Of a DNA stretch of 64,000 nucleotides, positions 9,706 through 46,957 are shown piece after piece. Where the stretch lies: NCBI GenBank assembly GCA_047602425.1, contig JASGHG010000001.1, positions 352,001-416,000 of the forward strand. Direction: 5' to 3'. The notes beneath the pieces are model-generated. The model saw only the letters and a program-made list of their open reading frames with translations, searched no databases and was not told where the DNA came from. Every line of letters begins with the position of its first letter. Within the stretch, counting starts at the first letter, position 1. Source of the stretch: Nibricoccus sp. GTDB lineage: Bacteria > Verrucomicrobiota > Verrucomicrobiia > Opitutales > Opitutaceae. Position numbers and translations under genes: made by a program.

Positions 9706-11487
9706 TCACGGTTCGATTTCGGAAACCTGTTCGATTGCTGTCAGGAACGCACTGACTTCGGGTGCAATTTCATCTAGTGTCATTTCTGCAGCTAACGCAG
9801 CAGCCGAAATAGAGCAGTTGAATTTTTCCGAGGTCCACCGGGAAAGCGCAGCGATCAATTCCGAACCGCAAACACGGTCTACTGCTCTCCCCTCCGACCA
9901 CTCTCGGTCAATGTACTTCACTGCGGTCGTTGCTGCGAGCCCTGCATTGAATTTTTCGCGATCCCACTTTTTGGCTTCTGCCATGTGAGCCTCAACAGTC
10001 GCTTCCTCAGTGGCCCGACGTAAGTCATCGCACGCTTTTCGAATAGCTTCTTCGACTGCCTCGATAGTAACGGCCTTACCAGATTTCCTTTCGATGAGTC
10101 GTTGGATCGTAGACGGCACAACTAAATAATTTTCGATCTCTTTCCGTCTCCAAATATGCAAGCAAACTCCGGAGTCCTTTGCCTCGTCGTATCGCGCATC
10201 GATTTCTTTTCCCGAATGAAAATCAGAGTCGAGAAGACAGTATATCTTGATCGTTCGATCCGTTACCTTGCGCATCATCATGCCAACACCTTTCGCAGAC
10301 GACCAACCTGTCCATCCGCCAACGGACATCCGTGGCAACCCACCGATTGGGCAATGTGAATGCGGGAAAAGTGTGTCGTGCCAACGACGAAGATACTGCT
10401 CATCCTGCCCTTCAAGCATAAGGAAAAGGCGAGAAGAGGAAAGCCGCGCCAAAGAGATATTGTGAATACTTCCGAGCAGCTCTACAACCTGCTGCAGTCC
10501 CGGAAGTGTATCAGCAAATGGGGACTGCCGCTCTCTACGATCAACGAGGAGCACATCACTAGGTTCAACCTCCGCCATAATTTCGGTGGAATGTGTAGCC
10601 ACTAGTAGTTGTCTCCCAGCTTGCGACTTTAGGTTACGAATTAAACGGCGTTGCACGTCGGGATGCATGTACACGTCCGGTTCGTCGAGAACGATACATT
10701 CCGCCTCCGCATTTCGCGCGAGAAACCAAGCCATCTGTAGCCAGACCTGTAGTCCGTGCCCCATGCAATCAATCTCGTCCGAAAAATCGTTGTCGCGGAC
10801 GATCAGAGAGATTTTTGACTTTGAGGGGTTTAACGTAGAGCGATCTTTCTCAAGAGCGATAATCTGCAGTGATGGCCACCCAAGTTCAGCTATCCTTTTG
10901 AATTCTCCAAAACTTTCATCGTAAAGTAGACTCAGTTGGTTCCTAAAGTGCAGCGAAGATCGATTGGTATCGATGCAGTTTCGAACGTACTGTTCATCTA
11001 ACTCTCGAGTTTCGGATCTTAACGGGCCAATCGAGCCCATAGTGCTAACTAACGGCAGCACTAGCTTCCGTAGCTGGCTATTACGCTGCACCAATTTTTT
11101 CGAGCTGTCCCTAAGCAAAGCATGCATTTCAATTTCTCCACGGTGGTCGCCCAAATAGATGGTCACGGAAGTTCCTGTCGTAAACTTCGCCGTGAGGACT
11201 GCTGGCGCTTCACGCCGCTGGAAATGTAGCGGACCACCATTCAACTGGAACCCTGTAAGTGATGGCGAGATTCCTACTCCAATCAGAGGAATATTGTCCA
11301 ACCACGGCGGAGCATCTCGCAAATTTTGGTTTCGATATTTTCGTGTCACCAAACTAACCAACCTCAATGCTTCGACTATCGTCGATTTACCGGCGTTATT
11401 CCGGCCTACGACAATCGTCCGGTTTCGAAAAGGAACAATATGATCCTCGAACCCTCGAAAATTCTGGAGGCGGAGCGACTCGATCAT
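9706..11487 (-). CDS. OLD-like ABC-ATPase/TOPRIM ATP-dependent nuclease
   Basis: LQNFRGF, Walker A GRNNAGKS, signature MGHG, Walker B VLDEPD, ATHS; TOPRIM LEGQDE...LDSD...KEIENY. Confidence 0.82.
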   Translation of the reverse strand: MIESLRLQNFRGFEDHIVPFRNRTIVVGRNNAGKSTIVEALRLVSLVTRKYRNQNLRDAPPWLDNIPLIGVGISPSLTGFQLNGGPLHFQRREAPAVLTAKFTTGTSVTIYLGDHRGEIEMHALLRDSSKKLVQRNSQLRKLVLPLVSTMGSIGPLRSETRELDEQYVRNCIDTNRSSLHFRNQLSLLYDESFGEFKRIAELGWPSLQIIALEKDRSTLNPSKSKISLIVRDNDFSDEIDCMGHGLQVWLQMAWFLARNAEAECIVLDEPDVYMHPDVQRRLIRNLKSQAGRQLLVATHSTEIMAEVEPSDVLLVDRRERQSPFADTLPGLQQVVELLGSIHNISLARLSSSRLFLMLEGQDEQYLRRWHDTLFPHSHCPIGGLPRMSVGGWTGWSSAKGVGMMMRKVTDRTIKIYCLLDSDFHSGKEIDARYDEAKDSGVCLHIWRRKEIENYLVVPSTIQRLIERKSGKAVTIEAVEEAIRKACDDLRRATEEATVEAHMAEAKKWDREKFNAGLAATTAVKYIDREWSEGRAVDRVCGSELIAALSRWTSEKFNCSISAAALAAEMTLDEIAPEVSAFLTAIEQVSEIEP

Positions 11488-11609: not shown

Positions 11610-12320
11610 ATGACCCCACCCTCCCCTCCGCCTGACTATCCACGCGTCAAGCGGGTGCAGAGTTTTCATGAGCTGGTCACCACGCGGTTCGCGGATGGCG
11701 TCAATGCCCTTTGCTGGGCGCGCACGTTACCGGGCAATTTCGGCGAGGTCCTGCAACATCTGGACGACACCGAGGCCATCGTCACGCTCGACGAGGCACG
11801 GCTTTTAGCTCTTCCCGTGAGTTCGTCCGGACGGGTAGCCATCGATATTCTCCTCGCCGACCTACGGCGGCTCCGCGAGTACGACCTCGCTCCCGTGCTC
11901 AACTGCATCAACGCCTACCCACGCGACGAACAGCCGGGGCCTGTGCGCACGGACGTGTTTTCCTACCACGCCGACAGCGCCACGACCGAGGCCGACACGT
12001 ACCTTTGCACGTACCACGGGCCGTCGAGCGAAGGCCTGCGCAACGAAGAAGCGCGACGCCGCGTGGACATCCCCGAAACGCGCGCCGAACTCCTCAAACT
12101 CCACGGCGGAGAAGACGACGATGACTTCCGCGCCTTCCTGAAAGAAAACTGCTACGATCTGCACTACGCCCCGCTTCCGTCGGCCCAGCCATATTCCTTT
12201 GGCCTCGGCAACCTCTGGCGCATCGCCTGCGAATATCCCGGCAGCCCCGTCCCGCCCTGCATCCACCGCGCTCCCGAAACCATTCACAACCGGCAACGAC
12301 GGCTGCTGCTCATCAGTTAG
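11610..12320 (+). CDS. DUF1826-like protein (double-stranded beta-helix / 2OG-Fe(II)-like His-x-Asp...His)
   Basis: SYHADS, LCTYHG, IHRAP, RRLLLIS match the DUF1826 motif pattern as recalled. Confidence 0.6.
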   Translation: MTPPSPPPDYPRVKRVQSFHELVTTRFADGVNALCWARTLPGNFGEVLQHLDDTEAIVTLDEARLLALPVSSSGRVAIDILLADLRRLREYDLAPVLNCINAYPRDEQPGPVRTDVFSYHADSATTEADTYLCTYHGPSSEGLRNEEARRRVDIPETRAELLKLHGGEDDDDFRAFLKENCYDLHYAPLPSAQPYSFGLGNLWRIACEYPGSPVPPCIHRAPETIHNRQRRLLLIS

Positions 12321-12359
12321 GGCAACTCCGTTGTGCATTTCCGTTGGAATTAGCGTCCC

Positions 12360-12499
12360 TCAGCGTTCATTAGCGGTCCCTAAAAGATCGTCTTACTCGA
12401 ACCAGCGCGCCGGGACGGCCCGCTCCACCTTACAATCAGTGCCAACAAGCGCTAATCAGTGGTTCCCCCTCTCCGTTTCCTCCGTTACCTCCTGTAAAA
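12360..12499. repeat. Cluster of REP-like intergenic repeat fragments
   Basis: GCGTTCATTAGCGGT, GGGACGGCCCGCTCCACC, AATCAGTG x2; CTCCGTTTCCTCCGTTACCTCCTGTAAAA (12471-12499) resembles the element at 13654-13737. Confidence 0.55.
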
Positions 12500-12674
12500 T
12501 GGTTCGATATGTTCGATTGATCGCTGAGTCCGCAAACGCCCTTTCCCGTCCCCTCCAATGCAAGCCAAAGTTATTCACCGGCGGCCCACAACTTACTCAC
12601 TTAGCGTTGTCGGTGAACAAGTTGTGAGGAAGAAATCCTTTCTTTTTCGAGGCAAATCGCGGATACTCATTCCC

Positions 12675-13551
12675 GTTCCTTGATAGAACAGCCGCAAGCG
12701 CGGCGGACCTGAAAAACCCGCCGATGGCACGACTGGGATAATCCCGGGCAACCGGGGAAAAGAGCGTCGAAGCTGGTTCGGCCCTCTCCTCCGCAGGCGA
12801 GTGATCGCCGCGAGAAGGCATATATCACCAGCTCCTCTGGTCGGGGTCGTGCCCGCACCAGTTAACAACACGAATCAGGAGCTGAGCGGCGAGCCGCGAA
12901 CTAAGAAACCGCGTGCGAGTCGAGTCAGGTTCGGAGACCGTTTCGATCTCCGCACTGATACCGTCACCCAGAGGGTTATGGCTGCTACGGTAGCACCAGC
13001 ACGCGATGGCGTTTCCCGGCGGGACCACCCCGCCAAAAGGCCCCGGTCTCTCGCAGGATCGGGGCGCGCAAAGGAAACGAAATCGCGGGGAATGAGCGAA
13101 CCTGGCAAAGTTCGTAAACGTTCCTGATTGGGGCGGCGTGAAAAACCACGTCACCCAACTGCAAAACGAAAAAGCAGCCTGAGAGTTAAGAGGTCAGACC
13201 CGTCCCGCGAGGCCAACGTACAGCCAAAAACTGCAGCCGTCCTCGTGGAATCGGTGCCGACGCGAAAGTAACCATTGCAGGCGTGTCAGCACCCTGTCCG
13301 GCGCGCGGCTCTCGGCAGAGAGCTTCCGAACCGGGCAAAGAGGCCTCACTCGAAAAACAGCGGCCGGCAACGGCCGATGCGGTCCCGCCATGAGACCGAA
13401 ACCTTCGCACTGCCGCGAAGAGTGGCGTCGGGGAACTTGCGGCCCGCGAAAGCGAGGCGCCCAACGCAAGTGCACGGGAAAGAGAGCGTGGCGAGCTCCA
13501 ACCCCCAATTAGGGCCCGCAGGACTTCGGTTCTGCGGGCCTTATTGTTTTT
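12675..13551 (+). ncRNA. Large (~880 nt) highly structured non-coding RNA, candidate MISL-class motif
   Basis: Near-continuous hairpins with GCAA, GUGA, GAAA, c(UACG)g and c(UUCG)g loops; nested long-range helices; A-rich linkers; 3' intrinsic terminator; no credible ORF. The MISL assignment rests on size, architecture and inferred phylum, not on a search. Confidence 0.78.
13510..13551 (+). terminator. Intrinsic terminator closing the large RNA
   Basis: AGGGCCCGCAGGAC-TTCG-GTTCTGCGGGCCTT then ATTGTTTTT. Confidence 0.85.
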
Positions 13552-13653
13552 AGACATAAACAAGTGGTTCGGCGAGGCCCTCGCTTCCACTCCTTCATCT
13601 TTATCGTTCTCTTTATCTTTCCCCCAATCGCAACTCTCCTAAAAGCCAAAACC

Positions 13654-13737
13654 TTTTTACAGAAGGAAACAGAGACAACAGAGCAATCCATCCGAAATTC
13701 CGACTCCTCCGTTTCCTCGGTTTCCCTTCCGTTCAAA
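13654..13737. repeat. REP/MITE-like imperfect inverted repeat
   Basis: TTTTTACAGAAGGAAACAGAGACAACAGAG ... CTCCGTTTCCTCGGTTTCCCTTCCGTTCAAA; related to 12471-12499. Confidence 0.6.
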
Positions 13738-13930
13738 CCGGGGCCGCCGCTTCATCCCGCCAAATAGCCTGTTTGCCCGCAAGTGGACCCTTTCTCTACC
13801 CAAAAATCTCCTCGCGACGCGGAACGGGGCTTTTATGTTTAGGTCTCATTGCAAGGGCGTGTAACAATCCCTAGGCGAACTTGGTCTGGGGGAGTTATCG
13901 CCCGGTCAGCCTAACTACACAACGAACACT

Positions 13931-14630
13931 ATGAAACTCCCCTCGCTTACTCTTCGCATCAGCGCTTTGCTGGCTCTGCCTTGGCCTTCCGCTGATTGCT
14001 CAAGCCCGCTCCGGCATCATTCCGTCACCCCGCGGCAGCGAAACCGAATTCCACGTCGAGGTCGGTTTAACTTATGTCTCAGGCGTGGATAATGTTATCG
14101 ATCAGTTGAAAACAAACTACCGTTTCGAAGACGACGGATCCTTTCCCGTCGGCCTGAAGATCAGCGGTTACGCCAAACTCGCCAATGGTTTCGCCTTCGG
14201 CGGCGGCATCGGACCCAGCCAGTATTTCCGCGTTCGCACCGGCCATCCCCGCGGTTATTATTACTACGATGGTTATTACTACGACGGATATTATTACCAA
14301 GGCGGCTACTACTATTACGATGATTACGAAACCAGTTACATCGTTCCGATATTCGCCGACGTCCGCTATTACTTTCCTAAAAACGACATCCTGACGCCGT
14401 ACGTTCGCGCTGGCATCGCTTATCCGATTTCCGGTGGCGATCATCTTAACGGCGGCGTGCCCGGCGCCATCGGTGCGGTCGGCGCCAGCTTCCTCGAAAC
14501 CCGTTATTTTTCGATGGGCGTGGAACTCGGTTTCGACTCTTCCCGCGTGGAAGTGAAGTCCGGCCCCTTCCATCCCAAGGAAAAAGTTCGCCCTACCGAG
14601 TGGACGCTCGGCGTCTTCGCGACGTTCTGA
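13931..14630 (+). CDS. Small outer-membrane beta-barrel protein with Tyr-repeat loop; apparent +1 frameshift in the signal peptide (~13979)
   Basis: ATG 13931 MKLPSLTLRISALLAL joins LGLPLIAQA.RSGIIPSPRGSETEFHVEVGLTYVSGVDNV after removing one base; VPIFADVRYYF, PYVRAGIAY; C-terminal LGVFATF (BAM-type terminal Phe). Confidence 0.78.
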
Positions 14631-14793: not shown

Positions 14794-16626
14794 ATGAACC
14801 AGAACATCCGTAACATCGCCATCATTGCCCACGTCGACCATGGCAAGACCACGCTCGTCGACCAACTTCTCAAAGAAGGCGGCGTCTTCCGCGCCAACCA
14901 ACAGGTCGCCGAACGCGCCATGGATTCCATGGATCTCGAACGCGAAAAGGGCATCACGATCAAAGCCAAGAACACGTCGGTTCACTGGAAGGACAAAATC
15001 ATCAACATCGTCGACACCCCAGGACACGCGGACTTCGGCGGCGAAGTCGAACGCGCCCTACGCATGGTCGATGGTGTGCTCCTCGTAGTTGACGCTTATG
15101 ACGGTCCTCAGGCCCAGACTCGTTTCGTGCTCCGCAAGGCTCTCGCGCATGGCCTCAAGGTCGTGATCGTCATCAACAAGATTGATCGCGAAAACGCCGA
15201 CCCGAAGAAGATGTACGAAAAGGTCCTCGAACTCCTTCTCGAACTCAACGCCACCGAGGAACAGTTCGACGCCCCGGTCGTTTACGGTTCCGGCCGCGAC
15301 GGCTACATGATGCGCAAGCTCGACGATGAAAAGAAAAACATGGCACCACTCTTCGAGTGCATCCTCGAGCACGTTCCGCCTCCGTTCGCCCGCCCGAACC
15401 AGCCGTTCCACATGCTGGTGTCCAACATCGACTGGAGCGACTACGTCGGCCGTATCGCCATCGGCAAGGTCCTTGGCGGTAAAGCCCGGTTGGGCGATCC
15501 CGTATTCGTTATCCGCCATTCGGACGGCAAACGCGCCCGCGCCAAGATCACCCAGGTTTTCGAATACTCCGGCCTCGGCACCGTCGGTTCCGAAGTCGCT
15601 GACGCCGGCCACATCGTCGGCCTCGCCGGCTTCGAGGATATCGACATCGGCGACACCATTGCCGCCAACGAAGACGCCCACGCGCTGCCCTTCACCCAAA
15701 TCGACCCGCCGACGCTCGAAATGCAGTTCTGCGTCAACGACGGTCCGCTCGTCGGCCAGGAAGGCAAGCTCGTCACCTCACGCCAGCTTCGCGAACGTCT
15801 GATGCGCGAACTGAAGACCAACGTTTCCATTCACATTGAAGACTCCGACAAAGCCGGCGTCTTCAACGTCAAGGCCCGCGGCGCCATGCAGGTTGCCGTG
15901 CTCGTCGAAACGATGCGTCGCGAAGGATTCGAACTCCTCGTCTCCCGCCCGACCGTCATCGAAAAGAAGGGCCCCAATGGCGAACGTCTCGAACCCTACG
16001 AAACCGTCTGGATCGAAATTCCCGACGAATGCGTCGGCGCCATCATGCAGAATCTGGCCAACCGCAAAGGCCAGATGACGAACATGGAAAAGCTCCCGCA
16101 CTCGACCATGATCGAGGCCACGATCACCACCCGCGGTTTGATCGGCATGGAAATCGACGTCGTCAATGCCACCAGCGGCCGCGGCGTGCTCAGCCATCTC
16201 TTTAAAGAATACGGCCCCTACGCTGGCGAAGTCCTCACCCGCATCACCGGCACCCTCATCGCCACCGACGCTGGCGAAACCACGGCTTACGCCTTGGTGA
16301 TGGTTCAGGAACGCGGCAAGCTCTTCGTCAGCCCGGGCGAACAGGTCTACGAAGGCATGATCGTTGGCGAAAATCCGCGTAACGAAGACATCGCCTGCAA
16401 TGCCGTCCGCGAAAAGAAGCTGACCAACTTCCGCTCTCAAGGCGAAGGTGTTGCCGCGAGCCTCACGCCCGCGACGAAGCTCTCGCTCGAACGCGCGATC
16501 GAGTACATTGCCTCCGACGAATTCGTCGAGGTCACTCCGAAAAATCTCCGTCTGCGCAAGCGCATCCTCGACAATGGCGCCCGCCAAAAGGCGATGAAGT
16601 CGCTCAAAGCCCAAGCCGCCGAGTAA
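14794..16626 (+). CDS. typA: Translational GTPase TypA/BipA
   Basis: [37 protein letters not shown]-terminal [14 protein letters not shown]. Confidence 0.96.

Positions 16627-46881: not shown

Positions 46882-46957
<76 letters not shown>

What the first reader, a model, noticed from the sequence alone, without database searches (positions are those of the whole stretch)
12675..13551. ~880-nt ornate non-coding RNA with its own terminator (MISL-like large RNA)
Seen: an ORF-poor interval made almost wholly of stems joined by A-rich linkers. Tetraloop hairpins: CCCGG-GCAA-CCGGG (12743-56), GGCGA-GTGA-TCGCC (12796-809), GCTGC-TACG-GTAGC (12981-94), CGGCCG-GCAA-CGGCCG (13361-76), CGC-GAAA-GCG (13445-54). 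Enclosing helices forming multi-branch domains: CAGCTCCT/AGGAGCTG (12829/12877), CGCGTGC/GCACGCG (12910/12999), CGTTTCC/GGAAACG (13010/13073), CCGCGAGG/CCTCGTGG (13205/13241), ACTTGCG/CGCAAGT (13435/13465). It ends in a c(UUCG)g terminator. GNRA/UNCG loops and G-U pairs read correctly on the + strand, as expected for selection at RNA level. A -10-like GATACT at 12662-67 would put the start near 12673-75. Established (from memory): MISL (Mostly Independently Structured, Large) is a roughly 800-nt Verrucomicrobia RNA motif of unknown function. Inference: this is a MISL member or a new class of giant ncRNA. No hallmark of RNase P, tmRNA, rRNA or group I/II introns was found, and no RT or endonuclease is adjacent.
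Basis: partly seen in the sequence, partly recalled or inferred. Interest (0 to 1): 0.92.

Follow-up and report, generated by a model that had tools for sequence, protein, structure and literature searches.

The report
Known MISL RNA gene, rRNA-style start
The flagged stretch is a complete gene for MISL RNA, a large folded non-coding RNA of Verrucomicrobia that is already catalogued but has no known job; it starts with the same short signal as the cell's ribosomal RNA and is knotted together by three long-range pairings.

Summary
Window 12736-13499 (+) matches Rfam MISL (RF03079) over the whole model at 521.7 bits, against a cut-off of 274.6. This scan has already found MISL on other genomes several times, so the RNA is known, not a new class.

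- A -10 GATACT lies at 12662-12667.
- A conserved 5' domain of about 60 nt lies outside the Rfam model.
- An intrinsic terminator lies at 13510-13551.

Points tested here beyond membership:
- The RNA begins with GTTCCTTGATA. The genome's only rRNA operon carries the same BoxA-type word in its leader and spacer.
- DnaA-box-like 9-mers sit at fixed places upstream in 40-44 of 89 family promoters.
- Three long-range pseudoknots are supported by covariation.
- There is no coding signal and no universal neighbour gene.
- 6S, RNase P, tmRNA and SRP RNAs all lie elsewhere in the genome.

The function remains unknown. My best reading is a stable, compact, trans-acting RNA made rRNA-style.

The parts
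12571..12579 (+). DnaA-box-like 9-mer TTATTCACC, forward, 1 mismatch to TTRTNCACA, 104 nt before the RNA's 5' word
   Evidence: A forward box stands at this position (-104) in 5 of 89 family promoters.
12593..12601 (+). Weak DnaA-box-like 9-mer (2 mismatches) at the family's forward-box position, about -81
   Evidence: Read. In the family a forward box with at most 1 mismatch stands at -82 to -79 in 40 of 89 promoters.
12612..12620 (-). DnaA-box-like 9-mer GGTGAACAA, reverse orientation, 1 mismatch, at the family position -63/-62
   Evidence: 44 of 89 promoters at -63 to -61; profile T T R T T C A C C.
12623..12631 (-). DnaA-box-like 9-mer TGTGAGGAA, reverse orientation, 2 mismatches, at the family position -52/-51, next to the -35 region
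   Evidence: (42 of 89 promoters at -52 to -50).
12640..12645 (+). -35-equivalent hexamer TTCTTT, a poor match to TTGACA
   Evidence: Placed by geometry from the family consensus (TT at -35/-34 from the anchor). Distant lineages have TTGACA-like hexamers at the same place.
12662..12667 (+). -10 hexamer GATACT
   Evidence: The family consensus has A at -12 and T at -8 from the anchor. The strict sigma-70 scan listed no promoter.
12675..12689 (+). 5' word GTTCCTTGATAGAAC. It is a BoxA-type word (12675-12685) that can also close into a 4-bp hairpin (GTTC/GAAC).
   Evidence: G, T, T, C, T, T, G are invariant in 69 of 69 sequences. G-U wobbles in 5 sequences fit pairing on the + strand. The same word class stands in the own rRNA leader and spacer.
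12690..12734 (+). 5' domain P0, outside the Rfam model: helix 12690-94:12730-34 around an inner hairpin 12702-06:12718-22
   Evidence: Own-partner helices average 6.45 bp against 4.16 bp for cross-lineage partners, with many compensating variants.
12736..13499 (+). Body of the RNA: full-length match to Rfam MISL (RF03079)
   Evidence: 521.7 bits, model 1-751/751.
12773..12777 (+). Pseudoknot A, 5' half (hairpin loop CUGGU)
   Evidence: Pairs with 12995-12999. Standard pairs in 80, 80, 80, 80 and 75 of 80 sequences, with variants such as CGAAC/GUUCG and CAAAU/AUUUG. Tool count.
12995..12999 (+). Pseudoknot A, 3' half (ACCAG in a junction strand)
13010..13079 (+).
   Evidence: 6 of 7 pairs standard in at least 33 of 37 Opitutaceae-type sequences, with covariation.
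13159..13164 (+). Pseudoknot B, 5' half (CUGCAA)
   Evidence: Pairs with 13275-13280. 97.3% standard pairs against 20-45% when slid, with variants such as CUGUGA/UCACAG, UUGUGA/UCACAA and CUGUAA/UUACAG. Tool count.
13165..13203 (+). Most conserved core of the family (CCUGAGAGUUAAGAGGUCAGACCCGU and its flanks)
   Evidence: Invariant columns. It carries the largest summed depth of RNA-library contigs.
13275..13280 (+). Pseudoknot B, 3' half (UUGCAG in a hairpin loop)
13386..13390 (+). Pseudoknot C, 5' half (CGCCA in a hairpin loop)
   Evidence: Pairs with 13423-13427, 80 of 80 at all five pairs. Pair 13389:13424 is C-G in 40, U-A in 21 and U-G in 19 sequences. Tool count.
13423..13427 (+). Pseudoknot C, 3' half (UGGCG in a junction strand)
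13510..13551 (+). Intrinsic terminator: 15-pair stem, UUCG loop, U-run
   Evidence: A hairpin plus T-run is present in all 20 loci. Covariation.

Best explanation
Window 12674-13551 (+) is the single-copy gene for a full-length MISL RNA (Rfam RF03079) in an Opitutaceae-type verrucomicrobial genome. It is an independent transcription unit.

Shown here:
- Membership of the family.
- The extent of the unit, including a conserved 5' domain.
- Three pseudoknots.
- Identity of the first word with the own rRNA BoxA-type word.
- Fixed positions of the DnaA-box-like sites across the family.

Inferred:
- A sigma-70-type promoter with a weak -35 is flanked upstream by DnaA-box-like sites.
- The first 11 nt of the transcript recruit NusB/NusE and the other Nus factors. 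The long untranslated RNA is then made, like rRNA, by a Rho-resistant, folding-friendly elongation complex.
- DnaA, or a protein with the same site, sets the promoter's output.
- The roughly 800-nt body is a compact object, not a string of independent hairpins, and ends at a strong intrinsic terminator.
- The product acts in trans as a stable folded RNA. Most likely it is the core of a ribonucleoprotein or an RNA-only assembly. It is not a leader, an antisense RNA or a messenger.
For: Membership: 521.7 bits against a cut-off of 274.6, model 1-751/751.

Copy number: one copy in the 5.16-Mb genome.

Structure:
- Fold z-score is -8.81 on the + strand against -2.68 on the - strand.
- The 5' domain is invariant or covarying in 69 sequences.
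- The three pseudoknots form 96.9% standard pairs against 19.7-51.9% when the partner is slid. Eight of 16 pairs change on both sides, and 0 of 500 shuffles reach any of the five measures. On 80 sequences the result is the same.

Independent unit:
- A terminator is present in all 20 loci.
- Neighbours differ between lineages: typA downstream in 9 of 20 loci, all of one family, and accD-folC, rseP, asnS/aspS-type or cysS elsewhere.

BoxA-type word:
- GTTCCTTGATA stands at the RNA's start.
- In the only rRNA operon, GTTCCTTGAGA lies 251 nt and GCTCTTTGAAA 130 nt before 16S, and GTTCTTTGAAA 70 nt before 23S.
- Of 44 genome-wide hits of the word class, 4 lie in sense within 500 nt upstream of a stable-RNA gene: these three and MISL. 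None lies at RNase P, tmRNA, 6S or SRP.
- The published gamma-proteobacterial BoxA consensus is GYTCTTTAANA (PMC5725501, passages read).

DnaA-box-like sites:
- In 89 unique promoters, 9-mers with at most 1 mismatch to TTRTNCACA stand at -63 to -61 in 44, at -52 to -50 in 42 and at -82 to -79 in 40.
- The background is 39 hits in 76,848 positions. Control positions -30 and -130 have none.
- The genome's own dnaA gene is preceded by two perfect boxes.

RNA libraries: contigs from three studies hold the RNA body, among them a 777-nt contig over 12731-13486 with 10 differences.
Against: - No experiment bears on function. 'Trans-acting scaffold or assembly' is an argument by exclusion and by analogy with other large bacterial RNAs.
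- Binding of Nus factors and of DnaA is not shown.
- In this genome the boxes are weak (two with 1 mismatch, two with 2). The promoter window ranks only in the top 3.1% of the genome for box density. The case rests on positions conserved among related, non-independent genomes.
- The BoxA-type word can also close into a hairpin with the conserved GAAC, which might compete with NusB/NusE binding.
- Contigs cannot show starts, ends, strand or level, and DNA can be present in RNA libraries. One run (X6) has low-depth contigs that run into the flanks.
- MISL was not found in 12 of the 24 other genomes of the same family, including two complete ones, nor in 142 of 151 genomes sampled across the phylum. 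It is therefore not a universal housekeeping part.
Confidence: 0.8

Rival explanations
1. MISL is a cis-acting leader of the downstream translation GTPase gene typA/bipA (14794-16626 +) and controls it by termination or read-through.
For: typA lies downstream on the same strand in 9 of 20 loci, as close as 69 nt after the Rfam match in G015. typA is ribosome-linked (Pfam), which would fit an rRNA-style start.
Against: All nine loci are in one family. Other lineages have accD-folC, rseP, an asnS/aspS-type synthetase or cysS beside MISL. A strong terminator follows the RNA in all 20 loci. In the window 1.2 kb and another ORF separate it from typA.
Confidence: 0.04
2. The RNA is a base-pairing or protein-titrating regulator (an sRNA or a sponge of the CsrB or 6S kind), not a structural RNA or RNA machine.
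For: Rfam types the family 'Gene; sRNA'. It has many hairpins joined by A-rich linkers and a terminator with a U-tail. Expression under a regulated promoter would suit a regulator.
Against: The conserved single strands are taken up by pseudoknots. No repeated short binding motif was seen in the loops. A canonical 6S RNA gene exists elsewhere. A length of about 880 nt with phylum-wide invariant junctions is unlike known sponges (recalled, not tested).
Confidence: 0.12
3. The locus matters mainly as DNA. It is a DnaA-titrating or DnaA-reactivating site, like datA or DARS, whose boxes are kept for replication control, and the RNA is secondary.
For: DnaA-box-like sites stand at fixed positions in 40-44 of 89 promoters.
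Against: The boxes keep a fixed distance (plus or minus 1 nt) to the -35/-10 and to the RNA's first word, as expected for promoter control. The RNA body is far more conserved than the boxes and covaries. The gene lies about 325 kb from dnaA.
Confidence: 0.05
4. It is a mobile-element or phage-borne ornate RNA of the GOLLD/ROOL kind.
For: Its size and ornateness. A defence-type ATPase (AriAB/OLD-like) lies 1.2 kb upstream. Short palindromic repeats flank it.
Against: No Rfam match to GOLLD, ROOL, OLE or HEARO. It is single-copy at a syntenic core-genome site between housekeeping genes in related genomes. The ATPase is not conserved beside MISL. No tRNA or integrase is adjacent.
Confidence: 0.02
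5. The interval encodes a protein or small peptides.
For: ORFs of 92-134 aa exist on both strands.
Against: The five ORFs tested are open in the same frame in only 4-20 of 80 relatives. Length mod 3 is evenly spread, and column entropy shows no periodicity (0.863, 0.874, 0.893). Pfam found nothing for the two ORFs it was given, 13186-13590 (-) in the interval and 12199-12627 (+) just upstream.
Confidence: 0.01

Closest known systems
MISL RNA (Rfam RF03079)
   Same: Full-length match over the whole model above the curated cut-off. The helices are the same, the host phylum is the same, and it is a stand-alone gene with a terminator.
   Different: Nothing that excludes membership. The real RNA is about 125 nt longer than the model, through the 5' BoxA-type word, the P0 domain and the 3' tail with the terminator. 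It has three pseudoknots and one junction-closing helix that the nested consensus printed by cmscan does not show. I could not check whether the original description already drew them, because the supplement was unreadable.
rRNA leader and spacer BoxA with the Nus-factor antitermination complex (NusB, NusE, NusA, NusG, SuhB)
   Same: The RNA's first 11 nt belong to the same word class as three sites in the genome's own rRNA operon, and match the published consensus GYTCTTTAANA at 9 of 11 positions. Like rRNA, the product is long and untranslated.
   Different: The word stands at the very 5' end, followed by a conserved GAAC that can pair with it. I did not look for boxB or boxC. Binding was not tested. 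PMC5725501 states that its survey did not consider non-coding RNAs.
DnaA-controlled promoters (dnaA autoregulation, nrdAB in E. coli; recalled)
   Same: Several 9-mers fit TTRTNCACA in both orientations just upstream of and next to the -35. The genome's own dnaA gene has two perfect boxes upstream.
   Different: The target is a non-coding RNA gene. In this window the boxes have 1-2 mismatches, and no binding data exist. This scan noted the same thing earlier on other genomes.
Large ornate bacterial RNAs: OLE, GOLLD, ROOL, raiA
   Same: A size of hundreds of nucleotides, many junctions and pseudoknots, strongly conserved nucleotides and an unknown biochemical role. Cryo-EM showed GOLLD, ROOL and OLE to form RNA-only assemblies (10.1101/2024.12.08.627333, abstract seen).
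   Different: No sequence or model similarity. There is no phage or tRNA context as described for GOLLD and ROOL (PMC5737381, passage). There is no conserved partner gene as recalled for OLE. MISL is restricted to Verrucomicrobiota.
6S RNA, RNase P RNA, tmRNA, SRP RNA
   Same: Stable, stand-alone housekeeping RNA genes.
   Different: All four have their own genes elsewhere in this genome, and none has the BoxA-type word upstream. MISL does not replace any of them.

Membership tests
MISL RNA (Rfam RF03079) | Score at or above the curated gathering score against the family covariance model, over its full length | tested here: met
   521.7 bits against 274.6, model 1-751/751, E 2.1e-157.
MISL RNA (Rfam RF03079) | The family's helices are present and kept by compensating changes | tested here: met
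   The alignment to the consensus structure has few non-standard pairs. Helices are kept in 80 relatives with two-sided changes.
MISL RNA (Rfam RF03079) | Host range: Verrucomicrobiota | tested here: met
   Found in 19 of 41 relatives and 9 of 151 genomes sampled across the phylum. The 120 named records are almost all titled Verrucomicrobiota, Opitutaceae, Lacunisphaera, Nibricoccus, Pedosphaera and the like. The window's 5' word is the type seen in records titled Opitutaceae.
MISL RNA (Rfam RF03079) | Stand-alone gene, not a leader of a fixed downstream gene | tested here: met
   Own -10, terminator in all 20 loci, and neighbours that differ between lineages.
GOLLD / ROOL / OLE / HEARO large RNAs | Match to the family covariance model | tested here: not met
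   No match at gathering score in the whole window, and none up to E 1 in 12400-13800.
rRNA-type BoxA element | Sequence of the BoxA word class, shared with the organism's own rRNA leader and spacer | tested here: met
   GTTCCTTGATA against GTTCCTTGAGA, GCTCTTTGAAA and GTTCTTTGAAA in the rRNA operon. It matches GYTCTTTAANA at 9 of 11 positions. The word is invariant in 69 of 69 family members.
rRNA-type BoxA element | Binds NusB/NusE and confers resistance to Rho | not testable with these tools
   Needs EMSA or ChIP, and boxA mutants with and without a Rho inhibitor.
DnaA-box cluster | 9-mers fitting TTRTNCACA, clustered and conserved in position | tested here: met
   Boxes with at most 1 mismatch stand at three fixed places in 40-44 of 89 promoters, against a background of 5e-4 per position. 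In the window itself there are two boxes with 1 mismatch and two with 2, and box density is only in the top 3.1% genome-wide.
DnaA-box cluster | Bound by DnaA | not testable with these tools
   Needs DnaA ChIP-seq or footprinting. Another factor with a similar site is not excluded.

The most novel reading that the evidence does not exclude
MISL is not a string of independent hairpins. It is a compact, triply pseudoknotted RNA that the cell makes like a fourth ribosomal-type RNA. A BoxA word at its 5' end recruits the Nus antitermination and folding complex. DnaA bound at fixed promoter sites ties its synthesis to the replication state. The product is the core of an undescribed ribonucleoprotein or RNA-only assembly, possibly catalytic, that links replication or growth state to an RNA-based function in part of the Verrucomicrobiota.
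Probability: 0.2. Interest if true: 0.75.

Novelty: already known. Interest (0 to 1): 0.3.

Why it matters
The RNA itself is catalogued, so the finding adds no new class. MISL is nevertheless one of the largest bacterial non-coding RNAs without any known function. In the library searched it is mentioned only as a chemical-mapping example.

Three features make it testable:
- An rRNA-style BoxA start.
- DnaA-box-like sites fixed at the promoter.
- A pseudoknotted, compact fold.

They predict Nus-dependent, Rho-resistant synthesis, DnaA-dependent expression, and a defined three-dimensional object suited to cryo-EM. A published survey of BoxA targets expressly left non-coding RNAs out (PMC5725501). 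If the inferences hold, MISL would be a new kind of target for both regulators.

Tried and rejected
Literature
- The supplement of Weinberg et al. 2017 could not be read. The origin of the name, the published drawing and any published pseudoknots remain unchecked.
- The searches 'MISL RNA', MISL with GOLLD/ROOL, and MISL with Verrucomicrobia/RNA motif found only the Ribonanza preprint.

Structure
- RNAalifold on the MAFFT alignment of the 5' region did not call the P0 helix, because the variable arms were misaligned. I tested it without an alignment instead.
- A loose all-against-all covariation screen was mostly noise, so I tightened it.
- Long-range pairings considered and dropped:
  - Loop 12771-77 with 12827-33 fails in distant lineages.
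  - GNRA loop 12748-51 with 13275-78 fails because that partner is taken by pseudoknot B.
  - 13411-16 with 13488-93 fails in G037.
  - Loop 12940-45 with 13391-96 or 13180-84 is weak.
  - The 3' tail CCCC with GGGG at 13430-33 has both sides nearly invariant, so there is no test.

DnaA boxes in the own genome
- The MISL promoter is not an outlier (top 3.1% of 300-nt windows), and no oriC-like cluster stood out.
- The rRNA leader has no box cluster.

Promoter
- The strict sigma-70 scan found no promoter.

RNA libraries
- In runs X1, X2 and X8 no contig covers 12400-12681 or 13528-13800. The flanks are not conserved among relatives and contigs cannot show ends, so this is not evidence for the boundaries.
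- Summed word depth is not a measure of expression.

Neighbours
- No gene is a universal neighbour.
- Several 'conserved ORF' clusters were alternative frames of the same high-GC DNA.

Earlier notes
- None exist for this genome.
Full report
**What is there.** The whole-window Rfam scan gives one strong match in the flagged interval: MISL (RF03079) at 12736-13499 on the + strand. It scores 521.7 bits against a gathering score of 274.6 and covers model positions 1-751 of 751. A permissive scan of 12400-13800 adds only chance-level matches, with E 0.66-0.82 and far below their cut-offs. The + strand of 12675-13551 folds at -401.4 kcal/mol against -343.3 +/- 6.6 for shuffles (z -8.81). The - strand reaches only z -2.68. 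A 15-pair UUCG-loop hairpin followed by a T-run stands at 13510-13543. The genome, 5.16 Mb in one contig, holds one copy.

**Not coding.** The window's five longest ORFs in the interval are open in the same frame in only 4-20 of 80 relatives. Aligned lengths are spread evenly over mod 3. Column variability has no 3-base period. Pfam finds nothing in the ORF at 13186-13590 (-).

I tested the ten listed helices on a MAFFT alignment of 80 unique full-length family members.
- Seven are kept across the whole set.
- The helix 13010-16:13073-79 is kept with covariation in the 37 Opitutaceae-type sequences. The Rfam consensus does not draw it.
- GCTGC/GTAGC at 12981-94 is not conserved, because the family pairs 12960-63 with 12988-91.
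- CGCGTGC/GCACGCG (12910/12999) is not conserved, because 12910-16 pairs with 12893-98.
- The proposed -10 GATACT (12662-67) falls exactly on the family's TAnnnT, 7 nt before the conserved first word.

**Extent.** The RNA is longer than the Rfam model. In 20 loci aligned with flanks and in 69 sequences of the 5' region, a word GTTC-N-TTGA-N-AGAAC precedes the model by about 60 nt; in the window it is 12675-12689. Its G, T, T, C, T, T, G are invariant in 69 of 69 sequences. A helix follows (12690-94:12730-34) around an inner hairpin. Sequences pair with their own partner over 6.45 bp on average, against 4.16 bp with partners from other lineages, and there are many compensating variants. Distant lineages place a TTGACA-like -35 and a -10 directly upstream of the word. 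All 20 loci end in a hairpin and T-run.

**Distribution and context.**
- MISL was found in 19 of 41 relatives, counting the window's genome. Within the same family it was found in 12 of 24 other genomes, and not in two complete genomes of that family.
- It was found in 9 of 151 genomes sampled across the phylum.
Nearly all are titled Verrucomicrobiota, Opitutaceae, Lacunisphaera, Nibricoccus, Pedosphaera, Limisphaerales or Chthoniobacteraceae. Four carry titles of other phyla. The three of those that I rescanned (L063, L080, L091) carry Pedosphaera-type MISL at 582-611 bits, so I read them as binning errors.
- All 20 of 20 such loci rescanned with Rfam are full-length MISL at 364.6-614.2 bits.
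- typA/bipA follows on the same strand in 9 of 20 loci, all in one family.
- An HrpB-type helicase gene lies upstream on the other strand in 19 of 71 further loci.
- Other lineages have accD-folC, rseP, an asnS/aspS-type gene or cysS beside MISL.
- No partner gene is universal.
- 6S, RNase P, tmRNA and SRP RNAs have their own genes elsewhere.

**RNA libraries.** Twenty runs from 16 studies hold part of the stretch, and 12 are on record as RNA. I laid four of them. Sediment, sludge and freshwater metatranscriptome contigs cover the RNA body. One is a 777-nt contig over 12731-13486 with 10 differences, and 977 contigs of one sediment run lay on the stretch. This fits transcription. However, contigs show neither ends nor level, and one leaf-litter run has low-depth contigs that reach into the flanks.

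**BoxA-type start.** Earlier notes of this scan on other genomes said that MISL starts with an rRNA-style signal, and I tested that here.
- The genome's only rRNA operon was located by Rfam on L170.
- It carries GTTCCTTGAGA 251 nt and GCTCTTTGAAA 130 nt before 16S, and GTTCTTTGAAA 70 nt before 23S. MISL starts GTTCCTTGATA.
- The word class has 44 hits genome-wide. Four lie in sense within 500 nt upstream of a stable-RNA gene: the three rRNA sites and MISL. None lies at RNase P, tmRNA, 6S or SRP.
- The published gamma-proteobacterial BoxA consensus is GYTCTTTAANA. The same paper says its survey did not consider non-coding RNAs (PMC5725501, passages read).
- I infer that NusB/NusE and the other Nus factors load here and protect the long untranslated transcript from Rho, as on rRNA. 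Binding is not shown.
- The conserved GAAC that can pair with GTTC, with G-U wobbles in 5 sequences, is specific to MISL.

**DnaA-box-like sites.** This was also a lead from earlier notes.
- I anchored 89 unique promoters on the first word and looked for 9-mers with at most 1 mismatch to TTRTNCACA.
- They stand in reverse orientation at -63 to -61 in 44 promoters and at -52 to -50 in 42. They stand in forward orientation at -82 to -79 in 40.
- The background is 39 hits in 76,848 flank positions, and control positions -30 and -130 have none.
- The window has GGTGAACAA (12612-20) and TTATTCACC (12571-79) with 1 mismatch each, and two further sites with 2 mismatches. Its -35 equivalent is poor (TTCTTT).
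- The own dnaA gene is preceded by two perfect boxes.
- Within this genome alone the MISL promoter is unremarkable, in the top 3.1%. The related genomes are not independent. The sites are real conserved elements, but that DnaA binds them is an inference.

**Pseudoknots.** A covariation screen of the 80 sequences gave three long-range pairings that cross the nested structure.
- A: loop 12773-77 with 12995-99. Standard pairs in 80, 80, 80, 80 and 75 of 80 sequences, with variants such as CGAAC/GUUCG and CAAAU/AUUUG.
- B: 13159-64 with loop 13275-80. 97.3% standard pairs against 20-45% when slid, with at least eight compensating variants.
- C: loop 13386-90 with 13423-27. 80 of 80 at all five pairs, and pair 13389:13424 is C-G in 40, U-A in 21 and U-G in 19 sequences.

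On the independent 20-sequence alignment A1 the tool counts 96.9% paired cells against 19.7-51.9% when slid. Eight of 16 pairs change on both sides, and 0 of 500 shuffles reach any measure. The RNA is therefore compact, not a chain of independent hairpins. I could not check whether the original description shows these pairings.

**Verdict.** This is a real, full-length gene of a known RNA family that this scan has met repeatedly, so novelty is low. The function is unknown. The best-supported account is an rRNA-style-made, promoter-regulated, compactly folded RNA that acts in trans. The added features make that account directly testable.

Noticed in passing
window 9706-11487 (-): A 593-aa ATPase (Pfam AAA_15/AAA_21) whose best PADLOC matches are AriAB (fused PARIS), AriA and Old. 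It is a defence-type gene 1.2 kb upstream of MISL, and it is not conserved beside MISL in the relatives.
   Followed up: partly
window 12471-12500 and 13648-13740; genome C1: The 12-mer CTCCGTTTCCTC occurs 10 times in the genome against about 0.8 expected. Two copies flank MISL on either side. Several copies are part of a longer palindromic element ending in CCTGTAAAA. This looks like a REP-like intergenic repeat family.
   Followed up: partly
window 14085-14630 (+), repeats at 14252-14335: A 181-aa ORF between MISL and typA contains a tandem 15-18-nt repeat coding for a Tyr-rich run (GYYYYDGYYYDGYYYQGGYYYYDDY). It has no Pfam match. Similar ORFs stand at the same place in two genomes of the same genus.
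   Followed up: no
L034 (G019:C87) and L029 (G019:C46): One relative carries two MISL genes, one typical at 518.5 bits and one diverged at 401.8 bits, on different contigs.
   Followed up: no
window 13170-13218, runs X1, X2, X8: Many RNA-library contigs match only the universal core and then continue with a different, mutually consistent sequence. Loose ends before 13170 appear in 35, 4 and 5 contigs. This suggests a more distant MISL-like subfamily in sediments, sludge and fresh water.
   Followed up: no
L046 529-625 (-): In one named record the SRP RNA gene lies about 420 nt upstream of MISL on the other strand. This is a single case.
   Followed up: no
genome C1: Cumulative GC skew peaks near 20 kb, close to dnaA at 39.7 kb, and bottoms at about 2.24 Mb of 5.16 Mb. 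That is the opposite sign to the usual origin-at-minimum pattern, with unequal arms. No clear DnaA-box cluster marks an origin.
   Followed up: partly
window 46885-46957 (-): A tRNA gene, the only other Rfam match in the window.
   Followed up: no
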